Translations under genes and position numbers: made by a program
Part shown: positions 1 to 4,449 of the stretch, piece after piece
Position numbering within the stretch: position 1 is the first letter of the stretch
Layout of the letters: the number at the start of each line of letters is the position of its first letter
The notes under the pieces: model-generated
Database searches by the model: none
The model's input: only the letters and a program-made list of their open reading frames with translations
Told to the model about the DNA's origin: nothing
IMG/VR virus record: IMGVR_UViG_2541047438_000019
Origin: a virus
Taxonomy: Duplodnaviria; Heunggongvirae; Uroviricota; Caudoviricetes
DNA length: 5,563 nucleotides
Reading direction: 5' to 3' (one strand)

Positions 1-208
1 ATGTAATCATTCTGGCAATGCTTAATGCCGCTGCTTTTTCCAGATTGGTGATATCCTGCTCCAGAGCGGACAGATTTTCAGCCTGCTTAGCCCTGGCTTC
101 ATTGGCCCATTTCAGATCCTGCGCCGCATTAATTTTCTGGTGCATCCACTCATAAAGTTCATCATCGGTATAGTCTGGCGCGATGATGACGGGTTCTCGT
201 TTCTGCAT
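1..208 (-). CDS. hypothetical phage protein, N-terminal 69 codons only (gene continues past the left edge of the window)
   Basis: Absent from the ORF track because no stop lies inside the window. Reverse-strand ATG at 208-206 is preceded by AGGAG (complement of 214-218, 5-nt spacer). The frame stays open down to position 2. Translation starts MQKREPVIIAPDYTDDELYEWMHQKINAAQDLKWANEAR. No family recognised. Confidence 0.45.
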   Translation of the reverse strand, partial: MQKREPVIIAPDYTDDELYEWMHQKINAAQDLKWANEARAKQAENLSALEQDITNLEKAAALSIARMIT

Positions 209-300
209 GTCGGCTCCTTGTGGTTAGCGTTGCCTGCTTTTAACCACGTCAGGCGAGGTGGTATCCTCTGAGGGGTCTGTTACTCGAGAGGAAATTGGTT

Positions 301-501
301 ATGAATACAATCAAGTTTTCTTGCCCAGAATGTGGTGGCGAAGTCTTTGACACATCCTTTAAGCCGCAGGGCTCTGACAGTTTCGCGGGAGCCATCTGCA
401 AAAATTGTGGTCACCTTGTAACTGAAGATGAGTCCTCGCAGTTCGATGACGAAATCGTTGACAATATCTTCGGTGCACTCACCAGAGACTTTCTGAAGTA
501 A
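301..501 (+). CDS. small zinc-ribbon protein, 66 aa (CPEC-x21-CKNC, acidic C-terminus), function unknown
   Basis: ATG at 301 with GAGAGGAAA at 286-294 upstream (the track ORF starts at an in-frame TTG at 295). Two CxxC pairs 21 residues apart are unlikely by chance. Codons are mostly common E. coli codons. A perfect hairpin follows downstream. The fully overlapping reverse ORF 280-636 is its codon-for-codon antisense and uses rare Arg codons for 8 of 9 Arg. Confidence 0.5.
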   Translation: MNTIKFSCPECGGEVFDTSFKPQGSDSFAGAICKNCGHLVTEDESSQFDDEIVDNIFGALTRDFLK

Positions 502-547
502 AGGCGCATACCGCTTAGTTACCGCTCTGATAACTCTTACCTGTCCT

Positions 548-582
548 GCAATGGCGCTGATGTCAATATAAAGCGCCATTGC
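548..582 (+). terminator. candidate intrinsic terminator: perfect 11-bp stem GCAATGGCGCT / AGCGCCATTGC with 13-nt loop, followed by TGCTTCTTTGCC
   Basis: Inverted repeat read directly (548-558 pairs with 572-582). The downstream tract is T-rich but interrupted, so terminator function is uncertain. On the minus strand no U-tract follows. Confidence 0.35.
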
Positions 583-819
583 TGCTTCTTTGCCGATCCC
601 GGGATGCCTTCCATTCTGATGTTTGACTTCGCCCACTGAGAAACCCTCTGTTTCCCCTTAACGCCGGGGTAGCGGAACAAAAAACTGCTGCATAGTTATT
701 AAAGTTGAACCCTGCCGTCATGTTCATACGCCTCGGGCTGGCTACTTAACCCCTGACCACTGCCGGGTAACTCGAAGTATTTCCCTGCGTTCTGTGGGGC
801 GGGGTGGGTTGGTATTTTT

Positions 820-862
820 AGTTTAATAAACATTAAACTTAAGTCAAGTAAAAACTAAACCG
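820..862 (-). promoter_or_regulatory. distal operator-like module with a sigma70-like promoter on the minus strand (TTGACT-N16-TAAACT), near-duplicate of the module at 1835-1884
   Basis: GTTTAATAAAC (821-831, palindromic) + ATTAAACT + AAAAACTAAACCG (850-862) matches GTTTATTAAAC + ACTAAACT + AAAAAAACACTAAACCG at 1846-1884. Minus-strand TTGACT (complement of 842-847) and TAAACT (complement of 820-825) are separated by 16 bp. Confidence 0.4.
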
Positions 863-867
863 CGGGA

Positions 868-912
868 CATAACAAACACAACGCTTTTGATAAAGTCGTT
901 GCGGTTGTTATG
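868..912. terminator. imperfect 16-bp hairpin (14 of 16 paired, 13-nt loop) 20 bp downstream of the parE-like stop; possible bidirectional terminator
   Basis: CATAACAAACACAACG (868-883) pairs with CGTTGCGGTTGTTATG (897-912). TTTCTATT follows on the plus strand; on the minus strand a T-rich tract follows after an 8-nt gap. Not folded computationally. Confidence 0.25.
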
Positions 913-931
913 TTTCTATTGGTAGTGAAAG

Positions 932-1210
932 TTAGGGAAACTGGCGTCTTGCGTGGATCACGTTTACTACTTCAACGCTTGATGTTGTTACGCGGTATAG
1001 AATTATATAGTTAGGGTGGGCTACAATCTCACGCAAGCCAGGTACTCTGTCGCTTGGTGGGTATAAATACGGATGTTCGGATAACGGCAGCACACAACCC
1101 CTTAATCGCTGCCATAAGCGTTCAGCCGCATCTATGTCGAAACGAGCAATATAACTAGTTATATCATCTAGGTCGGTATCTGCGCTTTCAAGCCATAACA
1201 CGGGTAACAT
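932..1210 (-). CDS. parE2: ParE/RelE-family type II toxin (ParE2-like), 92 aa
   Basis: Translation MLPVLWLESADTDLDDITSYIARFDIDAAERLWQRLRGCVLPLSEHPYLYPPSDRVPGLREIVAHPNYIILYRVTTSSVEVVNVIHARRQFP has the ParE pattern (DLDDI..YIA, EHPY, PGLRE..V..Y.I.YRV, V.V..V.HARR). ATG at 1210 lies 1 nt after the stop of the upstream small gene. The longer track ORF (to 1306) would overlap that gene; ParE proteins are about 90-100 aa. Confidence 0.85.
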   Translation of the reverse strand: MLPVLWLESADTDLDDITSYIARFDIDAAERLWQRLRGCVLPLSEHPYLYPPSDRVPGLREIVAHPNYIILYRVTTSSVEVVNVIHARRQFP

Positions 1211-1211
1211 T

Positions 1212-1403
1212 TTACTGCTTGCTCCGTTCCTTGCGCATCTTAGCAAAGCGTTCTGCCATTCTGCGCTCAACTTCGTCATGGGGAATTGCTGGGCGCGGAT
1301 CTGCAAGGCTCGTTGCTACTTTCGCACGCAGCCATTCGTTGTAACTGTTTTCTTGTTCAATGGTTTCAAATTCAGAAACCATTGGTGAAAGGGCTCTATT
1401 CAT
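1212..1403 (-). CDS. paaA2: small antitoxin partnered with ParE (PaaA2-like), 63 aa
   Basis: ATG at 1403 preceded by GGAGGA (complement of 1409-1414). Translation MNRALSPMVSEFETIEQENSYNEWLRAKVATSLADPRPAIPHDEVERRMAERFAKMRKERSKQ matches my recollection of the short PaaA2 antitoxin of E. coli O157:H7. It sits immediately upstream of the ParE gene in the same operon. The track N-terminal extension (to 1457) would overlap the regulator gene. Confidence 0.8.
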   Translation of the reverse strand: MNRALSPMVSEFETIEQENSYNEWLRAKVATSLADPRPAIPHDEVERRMAERFAKMRKERSKQ

Positions 1404-1423
1404 GTTTCCTCCGGTTTTATAAC

Positions 1424-1795
1424 TCAGGCGCGGCGGCATTTTTGCGCCGCAATCCATCTCGCTATGAGATCTTCCATTGATTCTTTTTTCTGCTTTAACT
1501 CGCTGATTATCTGGCGTTGCTCATCCTCAGGGAAGGCTGAAAAAATCTGCAATAATTCCAGTTGATTAGACGTTAACCCTGCATGTGGTGGAGAACCCCC
1601 CGGTTGTTCTGCGTATTCCGCATCCAGATACCCTTCCGGCATCCCGTATGTTTGCTCTATTCTTCTGGCAGCCTTTTCTCCAAACGAGGCTCTCCCACTC
1701 ATTAGTTGAGATAGGTAGCTCTTCTCTTTGGGTGGCAGAGTTTTATCTTTAAACCACTCCTTGAGACGTAAACGGCGAATTTCTTTTTTTTGCAT
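1424..1795 (-). CDS. paaR2: CI-like phage repressor / regulator of the toxin-antitoxin operon (PaaR2-like), 123 aa, N-terminal helix-turn-helix, no LexA-type peptidase domain
   Basis: Helix-turn-helix-like N-terminus (KSYLSQLMSGRASFGEKAARRIEQTYGMPEGYLD) resembles phage CI repressor DNA-binding domains. Sits at the cI position, divergent from a cro-like gene across an operator-bearing spacer. Start taken at ATG 1795 (MQKKEIRRL); the track start at GTG 1858 would add a hydrophobic 21-aa extension lying over the operator region. Confidence 0.8.
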   Translation of the reverse strand: MQKKEIRRLRLKEWFKDKTLPPKEKSYLSQLMSGRASFGEKAARRIEQTYGMPEGYLDAEYAEQPGGSPPHAGLTSNQLELLQIFSAFPEDEQRQIISELKQKKESMEDLIARWIAAQKCRRA

Positions 1796-1892
1796 GTGGT
1801 AATTATCTTTAGTAATCACTAAACAAGCAAATACTTGACTTAATGGTTTATTAAACACTAAACTCGCAAAAAAACACTAAACCGAGGAAGGT
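1796..1892. promoter_or_regulatory. divergent promoter/operator region (OR-like) between the repressor gene and the cro-like gene
   Basis: Three direct copies of CACTAAAC (1817-1824, 1856-1863, 1875-1882); palindromes TTTAGT-N4-ACTAAA (1808-1823) and GTTTATTAAAC (1846-1856). Candidate plus-strand promoter TTGACT (1835-1840)-N18-TAAACT (1859-1864) for ydaS. Candidate minus-strand promoter TTGCTT (complement of 1825-1830)-N16-GATAAT (complement of 1803-1808) for paaR2. Confidence 0.6.
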
Positions 1893-2195
1893 ATGACATT
1901 AAAAGAGTTTATTAAATCATTAAGGGTTGGTGATGCTAAGAAATTCGCGGCCAGACTTGGTGTATCGCCATCTTACTTATCGCAAATGGCGTCTGGACGA
2001 ACAGCTATATCTCCAACCCGCGCCCTTATGATCGAATCTGCGACGGAAGGCCAAGTAAGTAGGGCGGAGCTACGACCCCATGATTGGGAGCTTATTTGGC
2101 CTGAGTATGCGAGCGGCATTCGTTTGGGGCAAACACATGTAGTTCATGCTGAAGGTGATTGTAGTGCATGCTTATCTGATGGAGTTGATTCATGA
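1893..2195 (+). CDS. ydaS: Cro-like helix-turn-helix regulator, YdaS family, 100 aa
   Basis: ATG at 1893 preceded by GAGGAAGG. Translation contains FAARLGVSPSYLSQMASGRTAISPTRALMIESATEGQVSRAELRP, the YdaS/Cro-type helix-turn-helix pattern. First gene of the rightward operon, divergent from the repressor. Confidence 0.85.
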   Translation: MTLKEFIKSLRVGDAKKFAARLGVSPSYLSQMASGRTAISPTRALMIESATEGQVSRAELRPHDWELIWPEYASGIRLGQTHVVHAEGDCSACLSDGVDS

Positions 2196-2617
2196 AAATC
2201 AAGCATGAACACATCCGCATGGCGATGAATGTCTGGGCGCATCCGGACGGCGAAAAAGTACCGGCTGCGAAAATTACCAAAGCGTATTTCGAGCTGGGAA
2301 TGACGTTCCCGGAACTGTATGACGACAGCCATCCGGAAGCCATGGCTCGCAATACTCAGAAAATTTTCCGCTGGGTGGAGAAAGACACTCCTGATGCGGT
2401 TAAAAAAATTCAGGCGTTGTTACCAGCGATCGAAAAAGCGATGCCGCCTCCGCTGGTGGCCCGAATGCGCAGCCACAGTTCCGCTTATTTTCGGGAGTTG
2501 GTAGAGACGAAGGAACGGCTGGTGAAAGATATTGATGATTTCGTTGCATCAGCGATCGTTCTGTTCGATCAGATGAATCGTGGTGGCCCGGCAGGAAACA
2601 CTCTGGCTGTGCATTAA
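2192..2617 (+). CDS. ydaT: YdaT-family protein (CII-like regulator of lambdoid/Rac-type prophages), 141 aa
   Basis: Starts MKIKHEHI, typical of YdaT-family proteins. ATG 2192-2194 overlaps the ydaS stop (ATGA at 2192-2195); GGAG at 2181-2184. Conserved ydaS-ydaT gene order. Confidence 0.85.
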   Translation: MKIKHEHIRMAMNVWAHPDGEKVPAAKITKAYFELGMTFPELYDDSHPEAMARNTQKIFRWVEKDTPDAVKKIQALLPAIEKAMPPPLVARMRSHSSAYFRELVETKERLVKDIDDFVASAIVLFDQMNRGGPAGNTLAVH

Positions 2618-2630
2618 TTGGGTAATAAAT

Positions 2631-3140
2631 ATGAGTAATGACAAAAAATTGACACTGAGCGTTTACGAAAACAGTCCGCACATCTGGCGTGGCGGTTTAT
2701 CTGATGTGGAGCTGGCAGAGTGGTTGATACATAAAGCTAATGCGCTGCTCTGGCGTTTGTCAGCCAGAGAACAGCGCAAGGAAACCAGAATAAAGCTGGC
2801 TGATGCAGAAGCGTGTGCCGGGCTTATTGAGGATTATACAAATCTTGGTATTTCTTCAGCAGAGAGTGATCCCATTCAGCCTCTGAGCAGGGAGTCAATC
2901 CAGCACGCTGGTTGTATGGCACATCTTGTAACTGCTCGTCAACATGAGGTGGGTATTGGATCACTTCCGGCGGGATATTCGCTGATTCCAGAGCTGGTTG
3001 AAGCAAGAAAATCAGTTCAGAAAAAGAGAGATGACGCACTTCAATTATTGAGAGAGCACTATGGCGCGATACCAGAATGCGAACAGCGTCGATACCCTGA
3101 AGGTTATGAATGGATGCAGTCTCTTTTTGAAGTTCGCTAA
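2631..3140 (+). CDS. hypothetical protein, 169 aa, no recognisable family
   Basis: ATG at 2631 (MSNDKKLTLSVYEN...) 13 nt after the ydaT stop, weak SD. Same strand as the surrounding early operon and protein-like composition (about 6 percent Gly). The track start at GTG 2580 would overlap ydaT by 38 nt. The strand is not fully resolved: antisense ORF 2824-3279 has a perfect SD (see findings). Confidence 0.5.
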   Translation: MSNDKKLTLSVYENSPHIWRGGLSDVELAEWLIHKANALLWRLSAREQRKETRIKLADAEACAGLIEDYTNLGISSAESDPIQPLSRESIQHAGCMAHLVTARQHEVGIGSLPAGYSLIPELVEARKSVQKKRDDALQLLREHYGAIPECEQRRYPEGYEWMQSLFEVR

Positions 3141-3357
3141 TCAATATGTCGAGACGAAGGTATGTTTCGGCGCGCAGCCAGGCTCTGTAATCCGGGAGCA
3201 TTTCGGGGCTGTTACACCAGCGGTTTGTTGCTGCAACATTTAATACATGAGCCTGATAAAGGCTTTTCAAAAAATACATGTCGAACCTCCTCTGGTTCTG
3301 TCGATTGGGAACCACAGATTATATCCGGAGGAAGGTTCGGCACCAGATGAGGTAGCC

Positions 3358-4449
3358 ATGCGTGATTACGCAAAAGTTTCTCCGCGATTCTGGCTGGGAG
3401 AAACGGGGAGAGAACTTAGAAAGGCGGGTGCAGAAGCGCAAGTTGTTGCTTTTTACCTGATGACATCCCCTCACGCAAATATGCTGGGTTTGTATTACCT
3501 GCCAGTTTTATACCTTGCTCATGAAACCGGGCTTGGTCTGGAAGGGGCTTCAAAGGGGCTTAAAAGGGCTGTTGAAGCTGGTTTTTGTAGCTATGACCAT
3601 GATGCAGAGATGGTCTGGGTCCATGAAATGGCAGCCTGGCAGGTTGGGGAAACGTTGAAGCCTGGCGATAACCGTTGTGCAGGTGTCAGGAATGAGTATG
3701 CATCATTACCTGAAAACGCTTTTCTGTCAGTGTTTTACGACAGATATAAAACGGATTTCCATCTGGATGTGAGGCGGAATAATAGCCGAAATTCGGTAAG
3801 GGGCTTCGAAGGGGCTTTTAAGGGGCTTCGAAGCCAAGAACAGGAACAGGAGCAGGAGAAAGAACAGGAACAGGACAAAAACACTATGGTTCATGGCAAA
3901 AAAAACACCACGAACCAGGCAGGGGATGTTCAGACCGTCAATCCTGGTCAGCCAGCAGGCACGACACCGGAAGCCGATTCGGGCGCTGTGCAGCAGGTGA
4001 TGACCGCAGGGTCGGAGCAATCACACCAACTGCAGCAGCCTGAAGCCGATTCCGCCATTCAGCGGGAAGCCGATCGGGTAGTCCCGGAAAGCACCGGGCA
4101 GTCTGTGGGACGAGTGGATTATCCGGATGTGTTCGAACAGGTCTGGCGGGAATACCCGTTGCGTGCTGGGGCAAACCCGAAGAAATCCGCTTTCAGTGCC
4201 TGGAAGGCCAGATTGCGCGAGGGGGTGCCACCAGAGACCATGCTGGATGGTGTGAGGCGTTACGCGAGATACCTGGCGGCGACCGGGAAAGCGGGAACGG
4301 AATTTGTTCAGCGAGCGACGACGTTTTTTGGGCCGGACCGGAATTTTGAAAACCCCTGGTTGCTCCCGGTAAGCGGCACGAACAACCAGCGTTGTGTGAA
4401 TCATATTTCTGAACCGGATACCGAAATTCCGCCGGGATTCAGGGGGTGA
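3358..4449 (+). CDS. phage replication initiation / replisome-organiser protein (O-like role), 363 aa, with low-complexity linker
   Basis: Sits immediately upstream of and coupled to a DnaC-like loader gene. C-terminal segment FEQVWREYPLRAGANPKKSAFSAWKARLREG...FFGPDRNFENPW resembles the conserved motif of phage replisome-organiser proteins as I recall it. Iteron-like DNA repeats lie inside the gene. Start chosen at ATG 3358 (GAGGT 5 nt upstream); an in-frame ATG at 3247 lacks an SD and is the alternative. Confidence 0.7.
   Translation: MRDYAKVSPRFWLGETGRELRKAGAEAQVVAFYLMTSPHANMLGLYYLPVLYLAHETGLGLEGASKGLKRAVEAGFCSYDHDAEMVWVHEMAAWQVGETLKPGDNRCAGVRNEYASLPENAFLSVFYDRYKTDFHLDVRRNNSRNSVRGFEGAFKGLRSQEQEQEQEKEQEQDKNTMVHGKKNTTNQAGDVQTVNPGQPAGTTPEADSGAVQQVMTAGSEQSHQLQQPEADSAIQREADRVVPESTGQSVGRVDYPDVFEQVWREYPLRAGANPKKSAFSAWKARLREGVPPETMLDGVRRYARYLAATGKAGTEFVQRATTFFGPDRNFENPWLLPVSGTNNQRCVNHISEPDTEIPPGFRG
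3542..3570. repeat. iteron-like direct repeats, cluster 1: AAGGGGCTT / AAAGGGGCTT / AAAAGGGCT at 10-11-bp spacing
   Basis: Read directly: GAAGGGGCTTCAAAGGGGCTTAAAAGGGCT. The repeat period is not a multiple of 3, so codon repetition does not explain it. Confidence 0.5.
3798..3830. repeat. iteron-like direct repeats, cluster 2: three tandem 11-bp units AAGGGGCTT(C/T)(G/T); candidate replication-origin core inside the initiator gene
   Basis: AAGGGGCTTCG (3798-3808), AAGGGGCTTTT (3809-3819), AAGGGGCTTCG (3820-3830), one helical turn apart, followed by a hexanucleotide repeat and an A-rich stretch. Confidence 0.55.
3838..3876. repeat. tandem hexanucleotide repeat (GAACAG/GAGCAG) encoding an EQEQEQEKEQEQ linker
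   Basis: GAACAGGAACAGGAGCAGGAGAAAGAACAGGAACAGGAC read directly, in frame with the replication gene. Confidence 0.8.

What the first reader, a model, noticed from the sequence alone, without database searches (positions are those of the whole stretch)
1424..1795. Short CI-like repressor without a LexA-type autocleavage domain
The repressor is only 123 aa: a helix-turn-helix N-terminus plus a short C-terminal segment, with nothing resembling the ~100-aa S24 peptidase domain that lets lambda-type CI self-cleave in response to RecA. Induction of this switch presumably uses another route (antirepressor, proteolysis by host proteases, or Cro/CII-driven bistability).
Basis: partly seen in the sequence, partly recalled or inferred. 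Interest (0 to 1): 0.4.

Follow-up and report, generated by a model that had tools for sequence, protein, structure and literature searches.

The report
PaaR2: known short prophage CI-like repressor
The 123-residue protein is PaaR2, the already characterised CI-like repressor of the E. coli O157:H7 cryptic prophage CP-933P; it really does lack the self-cleaving peptidase domain, but that fact and its Cro-driven bistable switch have been published, so the finding is correct but ordinary.

Summary
A 123-codon ORF runs on the minus strand from ATG 1795 to the stop at 1424-1426. It has a helix-turn-helix head (residues 1-58), a flexible linker, and an all-helical tail (76-122). There is no S24 peptidase domain, motif or fold.

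The protein is PaaR2. Window 900-2200 is 100% identical to E. coli O157:H7 chromosomes, and residues 1-66 match the PDB entries titled "PaaR2 N-terminal domain". The PaaA2 antitoxin and ParE2 toxin genes follow it on the same strand. The Cro-like ydaS and CII-like ydaT genes lie opposite it.

Jurenas et al. 2021 showed that PaaR2 binds OR and OL, competes with YdaS and produces a bistable switch. They state explicitly that it lacks the RecA-autocleavage motif.

What I add:
- The head also occurs fused to a true S24 domain, in 29 of 67 species-level loci.
- The tail is homologous to the tail of DicA (Qin prophage).
- None of the 67 loci outside E. coli carries the toxin-antitoxin pair, so the pair is a late insertion.
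- The whole module sits in a plaque-forming phage, Evi.
- No Rem-like antirepressor or LexA box was found.

Verdict: already known, low interest.

The parts
1424..1795 (-). paaR2 coding sequence (123 aa plus stop), the CI-equivalent repressor, translated from a leaderless mRNA
   Evidence: Translation. 100% nucleotide identity of window 900-2200 to O157:H7 chromosomes. Residues 1-66 identical to PDB 7nkv/8c3k/8c3l, 'PaaR2 N-terminal domain'. Start codon verified experimentally in PMC8630535.
1622..1795 (-). PaaR2 head, residues 1-58: helix-turn-helix DNA-binding domain
   Evidence: Solved structures. Model helices at 3-14, 22-33 and 40-49. Near-invariant across 67 loci. Distantly related to the YdaS helix-turn-helix (E 3e-4).
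1571..1621 (-). PaaR2 linker, residues 59-75: low-confidence, variable connector
   Evidence: Mean pLDDT about 51 for residues 61-70, with residues 64-68 below 50. Not conserved in alignments. The two differences from phage Evi PaaR2 (G66E, G67I) fall here.
1427..1570 (-). PaaR2 tail, residues 76-123: short helix plus long helix, DicA-type, the presumed oligomerisation domain
   Evidence: Model helices 76-86 and 90-122, pLDDT above 90. BLASTP to the DicA tail, E 4e-7. NCBIfam DicA model positions 83-130, E 1.4e-6. Conserved 'LTxxQxxLLxLFxxLPxxE' motif in short homologues. Octamerisation of PaaR2 is cited in PMC8630535. Assigning that role to the tail is my inference.
1796..1892 (.). 97-bp OR region with divergent promoters and shared PaaR2/YdaS operators. 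PR is TTGACT-18-TAAACT at 1835-1864 (+). The PRM -10 GATAAT lies at 1807-1802 (-). Palindromes lie at 1808-1823 and 1847-1862, with a half-site at 1876-1882.
   Evidence: Promoter scan. Palindrome search gave 8 hits against 2.1 expected. ACTAAAC gave 4 hits against 0.43 expected. Repeats. DNase I footprints and 5'RACE in PMC8630535. The PRM -10 was read directly from the sequence.
1212..1403 (-). paaA2 antitoxin gene (63 aa plus stop), with its own GGAGG ribosome-binding site, 20 nt after the paaR2 stop
   Evidence: Pfam PF21217 PaaA2, E 1e-19. NCBIfam NF050103, E 5e-24. RefSeq annotation at the matching O157 position.
932..1210 (-). parE2 toxin gene (92 aa plus stop)
   Evidence: Pfam PF05016 ParE_toxin, E 1.9e-16. 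RefSeq annotation as a RelE/ParE family toxin.
867..913 (-). Strong hairpin followed by a U-rich stretch, just after parE2: likely terminator of the paaR2-paaA2-parE2 operon (inferred)
   Evidence: Inverted repeat I2. RNA fold -24 kcal/mol, z -4.67, 0 of 200 shuffles as stable.
817..866 (-). OL/PL region. The promoter at 847-820 (-) has the same TTGACT and TAAACT hexamers as PR. Operator-like palindromes lie at 822-837 and 844-859.
   Evidence: Promoter scan. Exact 12-nt inverted copy of the PR -35 region (I3). Palindrome search. PL933P was shown to be repressed by PaaR2 and YdaS in PMC8630535.
1893..2195 (+). ydaS: Cro-equivalent regulator, competitor of PaaR2
   Evidence: Pfam YdaS_toxin E 3e-12 and HTH_3 E 6e-7. 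phrog_35. Function shown in PMC8630535.
2192..2617 (+). ydaT: CII-equivalent activator of a PRE-like promoter that reads back into paaR2
   Evidence: Pfam YdaT_toxin E 1.2e-9. phrog_163 'CII-like transcriptional activator', E 4e-45. PMC8630535 and PMC9986795.
2185..2202 (.). YdaT operator OM, TTGATT-CATGAA-AATCAA, at the ydaS/ydaT junction
   Evidence: Read directly from the sequence. It matches the published 5'-TTGATTN6AATCAA-3' site (PMC9986795).

Best explanation
The ORF encodes PaaR2, the CI-equivalent repressor of a CP-933P/Sp12-type lambdoid prophage immunity region.

Shown in the literature for the identical protein:
- It is translated from a leaderless mRNA that starts at its ATG.
- It binds the repeated GTTTAGTAA-type operators in the 97-bp OR spacer and at OL about 1 kb away.
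- It represses PR (ydaS-ydaT) and PL. At low dose it activates its own promoter PRM, and at high dose it represses it.
- It forms octamers in solution.
- It competes with the Cro-like YdaS for the same sites, which gives two heritable states. YdaT (CII-like) can restart paaR2 transcription from a PRE-like promoter.
- paaA2-parE2 ride on the repressor transcript as an addiction cargo, in the slot that rexAB occupies in lambda.

Shown here:
- The protein is a two-module chimera. Its head also occurs fused to genuine S24 autoprotease domains in other bacteria. Its helical tail is homologous to the tail of DicA.
- It has no autoprotease.

Inferred:
- The tail drives dimer-to-octamer assembly and OR-OL cooperativity.
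- The switch cannot be flipped by RecA-stimulated self-cleavage. It flips stochastically or physiologically through the PaaR2/YdaS balance.
- It may also be flipped by an as yet unidentified antirepressor, as happens for DicA (Rem) and the Gifsy repressors.
For: Identity:
- 100% nucleotide identity over window 900-2200 with many O157:H7 chromosomes, and 98% over 1-2617.
- PDB 7nkv, 8c3k and 8c3l, 'PaaR2 N-terminal domain', are identical over residues 1-66.

Operon and neighbours:
- PaaA2 and ParE follow on the same strand; YdaS and YdaT are divergent.

Operators and promoters:
- Recovered from the sequence, in agreement with the footprints, 5'RACE and reporter assays in PMC8630535.

No S24:
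-. The paper says the same.

Modular architecture:
- The head is 76% identical to the S24-bearing P0067 over residues 1-58 only.
- 29 of 67 head-sharing proteins carry PF00717.
- The tail aligns to the DicA tail at E 4e-7 and to the NCBIfam DicA model at E 1.4e-6.

CI role is ancestral:
- Short and long homologues both sit in the cI slot. 57 of 67 lie opposite a YdaS-type gene, and 0 of 67 have PaaA2 or ParE2.

Still a working phage module:
- Phage Evi, a plaque-forming temperate coliphage, carries the whole block at 97% identity.
Against: - No direct test of PaaR2 cleavage after DNA damage appears in the papers I could read. The 'not reactive to mitomycin C' statement cites Asadulghani 2009, which scored the Sp12 repressor as 'disrupted' and predicted Sp12 to be non-excisable, so that evidence is indirect.
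- The role of the tail in oligomerisation is inferred. Only the head has been solved, and the tail has no significant structural match.
- In the plasmid reporter most cells sat in the ydaST-on state, so how tightly PaaR2 holds repression in a single-copy prophage is not established.
- The window is a mosaic rather than CP-933P itself: the replication genes differ.
Confidence: 0.93

Rival explanations
1. The switch is SOS- or stress-inducible after all, through a small antirepressor that binds PaaR2. This is how DicA is inactivated by Rem and how the Gifsy repressors are inactivated by LexA-controlled GfoA/GftA. The antirepressor would be encoded outside this window, or by a co-resident prophage acting in trans. 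This adds to the best explanation rather than excluding it.
For: - The PaaR2 tail is homologous to the DicA tail.
- DicA is relieved 165-fold by Rem (PMC10448788).
- Short non-cleavable lambdoid repressors, including DicA and RacR, were proposed as a class under antirepressor control, with cross-talk between prophages (PMC3121763).
- O157 strains carry many lambdoid prophages whose repressors lack the peptidase domain.
- The best full-length fold neighbour after PaaR2 itself is the SPC32H repressor from a repressor-antirepressor complex, but only weakly (E 0.17).
Against: - No Rem homologue in the window, in 13 kb of CP-933P or in 35.7 kb of phage Evi.
- No LexA box with a perfect CTGT-N8-ACAG core in any of them.
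- It is not known whether Rem contacts the DicA tail or its head.
- PMC8630535 explains the switching by PaaR2/YdaS competition alone.
- Spontaneous DicA derepression is itself independent of Rem and RecA.
Confidence: 0.2
2. PaaR2 is primarily the third component of a toxin-antitoxin system: a detached DNA-binding domain of the antitoxin whose job is to autoregulate paaA2-parE2. It is not a prophage master repressor.
For: - It was first described as the regulator of a three-component TA operon (Hallez 2010, as cited).
- It is co-transcribed with paaA2-parE2.
- PaaA2 has no DNA-binding domain.
Against: - 0 of 67 species-level loci with this head have PaaA2 or ParE2 within 3 kb, while 57 of 67 have a divergent YdaS-type cro.
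- Photorhabdus and Salmonella short homologues sit between ydaS-ydaT-replication genes and recombination or lysis genes, without a TA pair.
- PaaR2 primarily represses ydaS-ydaT and PL.
- The TA pair therefore looks like an insertion into an existing immunity region, as the authors also argue.
Confidence: 0.05
3. The gene is a truncated, disrupted remnant of a full-length CI repressor that lost its peptidase domain during prophage decay. Asadulghani 2009 scored the Sp12 repressor as 'D' (disrupted).
For: - Asadulghani 2009, Table 1 and text.
- Full-length relatives exist with the same head plus S24.
Against: - About 31 of 67 loci encode proteins of 135 aa or less, in Photorhabdus, Xenorhabdus, Arsenophonus, Klebsiella, Citrobacter and others.
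- The tail carries a conserved motif (P89 nearly invariant). It folds confidently and is homologous to the DicA tail rather than to any part of S24.
- The protein is biochemically and genetically active.
- It is present in a viable phage.
Confidence: 0.02
4. The protein can still be cleaved, either through a cryptic site (A72-G73 in the linker) cut in trans by another S24 protease, or through a hidden divergent peptidase.
For: An Ala-Gly dipeptide lies in the linker at residues 72-73.
Against: - The dipeptide is not conserved in homologues.
- There is no Ser/Lys dyad, no beta structure and no S24 hit.
- Only 51 residues lie beyond the dipeptide.
Confidence: 0.01

Closest known systems
PaaR2 of E. 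coli O157:H7 cryptic prophage CP-933P / Sp12 (Hallez 2010; De Bruyn 2019; Jurenas 2021, PMC8630535; PDB 7nkv, 8c3k, 8c3l)
   Same: Identical gene and flanks: 100% nucleotide identity over window 900-2200. Same paaA2-parE2 cargo, same ydaS-ydaT partners, same OR, OL, PR, PRM and PL sequences.
   Different: Only the surroundings differ. Beyond ydaT the window has an extra ECs1072-family ORF and a different 400-aa O-type replication protein, so it comes from a mosaic relative of CP-933P.
DicA, repressor of the Qin cryptic prophage of E. coli K-12
   Same: Short (135 aa), no S24 domain, occupies the cI slot opposite a Cro-like gene (dicC), and forms a bistable switch. The C-terminal tail is homologous: 29% identity over 70 residues, E 4e-7, with a shared LELLxxFxAxPExEQ motif.
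   Different: The DNA-binding heads do not align. DicA has a known antirepressor, Rem, while no Rem homologue is found near paaR2. DicA has no TA pair behind it.
S24-bearing CI/LexA-like repressors with a PaaR2-type head (e.g. P0067 Erwiniaceae, P0066 Serratia, P0076 Yersinia; 29 of 67 loci)
   Same: The head is 70-83% identical over residues 1-58. They occupy the same cI slot opposite a YdaS-type cro.
   Different: They carry a roughly 150-residue S24 autoprotease tail with the A-G region, GDSM and catalytic Lys. PaaR2 has a 48-residue helical tail instead.
Gifsy-1/-2/-3 repressors GfoR, GtgR and GfhR of Salmonella (Lemire 2011, PMC3121763)
   Same: Small (about 136 aa) lambdoid repressors without a cleavage motif, and not cleaved on induction.
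   Different: They are induced by LexA-controlled antirepressors encoded next to a dinI homologue downstream of the replication genes. No such module or LexA box is seen here. They gave no tblastn match to PaaR2 in the phage collection at E<=1e-3.
Lambda CI
   Same: Same position, leaderless mRNA, OR/OL architecture, self-activation then self-repression, octamerisation, competition with Cro, and a cargo operon behind the repressor (rexAB in lambda, paaA2-parE2 here).
   Different: No sequence similarity beyond the helix-turn-helix class, no S24 C-terminal domain and no RecA-stimulated cleavage. There are four 18-bp inverted repeats rather than three operators.

Membership tests
PaaR2 (regulator of the paaR2-paaA2-parE2 / CP-933P immunity region) | Sequence identity to the characterised PaaR2 protein | tested here: met
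   Residues 1-66 are identical to PDB 7nkv/8c3k/8c3l, 'PaaR2 N-terminal domain'. The whole gene is 100% identical at nucleotide level to O157:H7.
PaaR2 (regulator of the paaR2-paaA2-parE2 / CP-933P immunity region) | Followed on the same strand by the PaaA2 antitoxin and ParE2 toxin genes | tested here: met
   PF21217 E 1e-19 and PF05016 E 1.9e-16, at 1212-1403 and 932-1210.
PaaR2 (regulator of the paaR2-paaA2-parE2 / CP-933P immunity region) | Divergent ydaS-ydaT across a 97-bp spacer that carries GTTTAGTAA-type repeats, with a second operator cluster (OL/PL) beyond parE2 | tested here: met
   The spacer 1796-1892 is 97 bp, as published.
LexA / lambda-CI type self-cleaving repressors (MEROPS S24) | C-terminal Peptidase_S24 domain (all-beta fold) | tested here: not met
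   No PF00717 hit at E<=0.1, whereas 29 of 67 relatives hit it. The AF2 model has no beta strands. No S24 structure appears among the Foldseek hits.
LexA / lambda-CI type self-cleaving repressors (MEROPS S24) | Conserved Ala-Gly (or Cys-Gly) cleavage site plus a Ser/Lys catalytic dyad | tested here: not met
   In alignment A1 the GDSM and Lys motifs of the long relatives fall where PaaR2 has no sequence. The A72-G73 dipeptide is not conserved in the short family.
LexA / lambda-CI type self-cleaving repressors (MEROPS S24) | RecA-stimulated cleavage in vivo or in vitro | not testable with these tools
   The literature claim of no mitomycin C response is indirect.
DicA-type short prophage repressors | C-terminal helical tail with the LELLxxFxxLPxxEQ motif | tested here: met
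   BLASTP against K-12 DicA, E 4e-7, residues 53-119 against 63-130. NCBIfam NF007257, E 1.4e-6, positions 83-130.
DicA-type short prophage repressors | Full-length match to the DicA model (NF007257, cut-off 101 bits) | tested here: not met
   Only 28.1 bits, from the tail alone. The heads do not align. It therefore shares a domain with DicA but is not a DicA orthologue.
DicA-type short prophage repressors | Cognate Rem-type antirepressor in the same prophage | tested here: not met
   tblastn with K-12 Rem found no credible hit in the window, in CP-933P (13 kb) or in Evi (35.7 kb). The window's own prophage beyond 5563 could not be examined.
Gifsy / 186 / N15-type antirepressor-induced repressors | LexA-box-controlled antirepressor gene outside the immunity region | tested here: inconclusive
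   No perfect LexA core in the window, L001 or L009. Only part of each prophage was scanned, and antirepressors acting in trans from other prophages cannot be excluded.
Lambda-CI functional analogue (works-like, not membership) | cI position; divergent PR/PRM sharing multiple operators; distant OL/PL with matching sites; cargo operon behind the repressor | tested here: met
   Experimental confirmation in PMC8630535.

The most novel reading that the evidence does not exclude
The DicA-type helical tail may be a portable docking module for antirepressors. It would be interchangeable with the S24 autoprotease on the same DNA-binding head. A given immunity specificity could then exist in a directly RecA-sensing version and in a version wired to a so far unidentified small antirepressor, possibly supplied in trans by co-resident O157 prophages. 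PaaR2-type prophages and phage Evi would then be inducible by a signal that has not yet been found.
Probability: 0.15. Interest if true: 0.45.

Novelty: already known. Interest (0 to 1): 0.12.

Why it matters
As a finding it matters little. PaaR2 has been known since 2010, and its CI-like role, operators, bistability and missing peptidase motif were published in 2021.

Three practical points follow:
- RefSeq still labels this protein 'hypothetical protein', and many gene callers extend it to a wrong upstream GTG.
- An older O157 prophage survey scored it as a disrupted repressor. The comparative data here show it is an intact member of a widespread short-repressor architecture.
- The head/tail modularity (the same head with either an S24 tail or a DicA-type tail) and the presence of the module in a live phage give a clean system for asking how non-cleavable lambdoid repressors are induced.

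Tried and rejected
- Hidden S24 domain: rejected.
- Truncated pseudogene: rejected, because the short form is conserved and its tail is homologous to DicA's.
- Rem-type antirepressor next to hokD, by synteny with Qin: the 92-aa ORF after hokD in CP-933P is not Rem-like, and tblastn found no credible Rem hit in the window, CP-933P or Evi.
- LexA boxes: one hit in the window, with one mismatch, inside the O-like gene and at chance level. Only one-mismatch cores in CP-933P and Evi, none in a promoter-like position that I could recognise.
- Fold search for the tail: nothing significant. SPC32H Rep at E 0.17 and the DdrO, EspR and SinR-type hits at E>=0.6 are generic 'HTH plus helices' resemblances.
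- A72-G73 as a cleavage site: not conserved.
- De Bruyn 2019 (PMC6486494), the PaaR2 biophysics paper, is not held in the library. The octamer statement is therefore taken second-hand from PMC8630535.
- A search for a paper describing the 8c3k/8c3l structures found nothing relevant.
- ECs_2282 zinc-ribbon ORF (295-501) as a candidate antirepressor: there is no evidence beyond its small size and position, so it is left as a note.

Full report
**1. The observation**

The window has an ORF on the minus strand from ATG 1795 to the stop at 1424-1426. It is 123 codons plus the stop and begins MQKKEIRRLRLKEWF.... The finding's coordinates are exact. A longer reading from GTG 1858 (144 aa) is possible on paper, and many automatic gene calls use it (P0001 and P0002). 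It would, however, run through the operator and promoter spacer. For the identical gene, 5'RACE, N-terminal sequencing (MQKKE) and intact mass place the start at the ATG, on a leaderless transcript (PMC8630535).

**2. Is an S24 domain really absent?**

Yes, by four independent tests.
- Pfam shows no Peptidase_S24 hit for the protein even at E<=0.1.
- The protein shares its first 58 residues with a set of 208-215-aa proteins that do carry PF00717. Similarity ends abruptly after '...GYLD58' (76% identity over 1-58 with P0067, nothing beyond). The A-G region, GDSM and catalytic Lys of those relatives have no counterpart here.
- An AlphaFold2 model built on 50 short homologues (mean pLDDT 84.7) has helices at 3-14, 22-33, 40-49, 76-86 and 90-122, a low-confidence linker, and no beta strand.
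- Foldseek against the PDB returns only the PaaR2 N-terminal-domain entries at significant E-values.

**3. What it is**

Window 900-2200 is 100% identical to many E. coli O157:H7 chromosomes, and window 1-2617 is 98% identical to the ompW-adjacent prophage of strain 9000. Residues 1-66 are identical to PDB chains 7nkv, 8c3k and 8c3l, whose titles read 'PaaR2 ... N-terminal domain'. The protein is therefore PaaR2 of the cryptic prophage CP-933P/Sp12.

The neighbourhood is the published one:
- A 63-aa PaaA2 antitoxin follows on the same strand (1212-1403; PF21217, E 1e-19).
- A 92-aa ParE2 toxin follows that (932-1210; PF05016, E 1.9e-16).
- A Cro-like YdaS (1893-2195) and a CII-like YdaT (2192-2617) are divergent across a 97-bp spacer.
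- Replication genes come next.

**4. Regulatory DNA**

The spacer 1796-1892 carries:
- a perfect palindrome TTTAGTAATCACTAAA (1808-1823);
- a second palindrome with one mismatch (1847-1862), and a further half-site (1876-1882);
- a PR-type promoter TTGACT-18-TAAACT (1835-1864, +);
- a weak PRM whose -10 GATAAT (1807-1802, -) lies 7 nt from the ATG.

About 1 kb away, just beyond parE2, a second cluster (817-866) has two degenerate palindromes and a leftward promoter with the same two hexamers as PR. It also contains an exact 12-nt inverted copy of the PR -35 region. The ACTAAAC half-site occurs 4 times against 0.43 expected. A strong hairpin with a U-rich tail (867-913; -24 kcal/mol; z -4.7) separates parE2 from this OL/PL region and is probably the operon terminator. 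The published YdaT operator TTGATT-N6-AATCAA is present at 2185-2202.

**5. How it works**

For the identical protein, Jurenas et al. 2021 (PMC8630535) report the following.
- PaaR2 and YdaS both footprint the spacer, over 78 bp and 65 bp respectively.
- Both repress PR, PRM and PL. Low PaaR2 activates PRM about 4-fold while repressing PR.
- PaaR2 octamerises in solution.
- YdaT activates a PRE-like promoter.
- The locus is bistable, with states that daughter cells inherit. Stationary phase favours the PaaR2-on state.
- The TA pair acts as an addiction module but is not activated by the switch.

One caveat applies. Reference 26 (Asadulghani 2009) does not test PaaR2 directly. It scored the Sp12 repressor as 'disrupted' and predicted Sp12 to be non-excisable. 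In the papers I could read, non-cleavage of PaaR2 rests on sequence logic, not on a blot.

**6. What the comparative analysis adds**

(a) Two-module architecture. The head (1-58) is nearly invariant across 67 species-level loci from Enterobacterales, Pasteurellaceae, Burkholderiales and others. Of these, 29 carry a Pfam S24 domain, and about 31 are 135 aa or shorter. The short tail carries a conserved 'LTxxQxxLLxLFxxLPxxE' motif. It is homologous to the tail of DicA, the Qin prophage repressor (BLASTP E 4e-7; NCBIfam DicA model E 1.4e-6, tail only), while the DicA and PaaR2 heads do not align. PaaR2 is therefore an intact chimera of a CI-type head and a DicA-type tail, not a truncated CI. This corrects the 'disrupted' call of 2009.

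(b) The CI role is ancestral and the TA pair is cargo. 57 of 67 loci have a YdaS-type gene about 100 bp upstream and divergent. None has a PaaA2 or ParE2 match within 3 kb. Photorhabdus and Salmonella short homologues and an Erwiniaceae S24 homologue all sit in the cI slot of lambdoid regions.

(c) The head of PaaR2 and YdaS are themselves distant homologues across the helix-turn-helix (SYLSQxxSGR; E 3e-4). This fits their overlapping operator use.

(d) The module is not confined to a dead prophage. Escherichia phage Evi carries window 1-2615 at 97% identity. Evi is a plaque-forming temperate coliphage from infant faeces, isolated without chemical induction (PMC6969025; PMC10910852). Its PaaR2 differs only at linker residues 66-67, and its parE is intact but unannotated.

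**7. Induction route**

DicA, the tail relative, is relieved by the small antirepressor Rem, and it also switches spontaneously without Rem or RecA (PMC10448788). The Gifsy repressors are inactivated by LexA-controlled antirepressors, and Lemire 2011 already listed DicA and RacR in that class. I therefore looked for an equivalent here.
- No Rem homologue is present in the window, in 13 kb of CP-933P or in 35.7 kb of Evi.
- No LexA box with a perfect core is present in any of them.

The best-supported mechanism remains PaaR2/YdaS competition with YdaT feedback. An unidentified or trans-acting antirepressor stays possible; I put it at about 0.2.

**8. Verdict**

The residual open question is what signal, if any, flips a PaaR2-type switch in a live phage such as Evi. 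The comparative points in section 6 are modest extensions.

Noticed in passing
window 2618-4386 (compare L001 7718-8641): The window is a mosaic relative of CP-933P. Positions 1-2617 are 98% identical to it. An extra 169-aa ORF follows (2631-3140; phrog_8304; annotated 'ECs1072 family phage-associated protein' in related genomes), then a different 400-aa O/DnaD-type replication protein replaces the CP-933P gene. Similarity resumes at 84% in the DnaC-like gene. No complete E. coli genome covers 80% or more of the window in one place.
   Followed up: partly
L011-L077 (67 loci); alignment A3: The PaaR2-type head together with a divergent YdaS-type cro behaves as a conserved immunity cassette across Gamma- and Betaproteobacteria. 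The repressor's C-terminal domain varies: 29 loci have S24, about 31 have a short helical tail, and several are 140-190 aa with unclassified tails.
   Followed up: partly
L009 (Escherichia phage Evi LR597642.1), locus 19181-21795: This plaque-forming temperate coliphage carries the complete paaR2-paaA2-parE-ydaS-ydaT block. parE is intact but not annotated in the record, and PaaR2 is annotated only as 'putative regulator'.
   Followed up: yes
window 1424-1858; L001 6525-6896: RefSeq/PGAP labels the experimentally characterised PaaR2 (WP_001169686.1) as 'hypothetical protein'. Large protein clusters (P0001 at 144 aa with 231 members; P0002 at 150 aa) use an upstream start that would read through the operators.
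   Followed up: partly
window 295-501 (+): A 68-aa CxxC...CxxC zinc-ribbon ORF (NCBIfam ECs_2282 family, E 1e-15) lies between OL/PL and ydfC, on the strand opposite to PL transcription. Its function is unknown. [quoted passage not shown]
   Followed up: no
window 1427-1795 (-) against 1893-2192 (+): The PaaR2 head and YdaS share a recognisable helix-turn-helix stretch (SYLSQ-L/M-x-SGR; 35% identity over 46 residues; E 3e-4). The repressor and its Cro-like competitor are thus distant paralogues.
   Followed up: partly
window 867-913 (-): A 22-bp-arm hairpin followed by a U-rich stretch lies directly after the parE2 stop and just before OL/PL. It is a likely operon terminator and was not picked up by the simple terminator scan.
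   Followed up: partly
window 3826-3885 (+), within the O-like ORF 3247-4449: A low-complexity acidic Gln/Glu linker (SQEQEQEQEKEQEQDKN) separates the N- and C-terminal halves of the replication protein. The two halves match different PHROG families.
   Followed up: no
L001 12086-12364: A 92-aa ORF sits between hokD and the DUF968 gene in CP-933P, at the position rem occupies in Qin. It shows no sequence similarity to Rem.
   Followed up: partly
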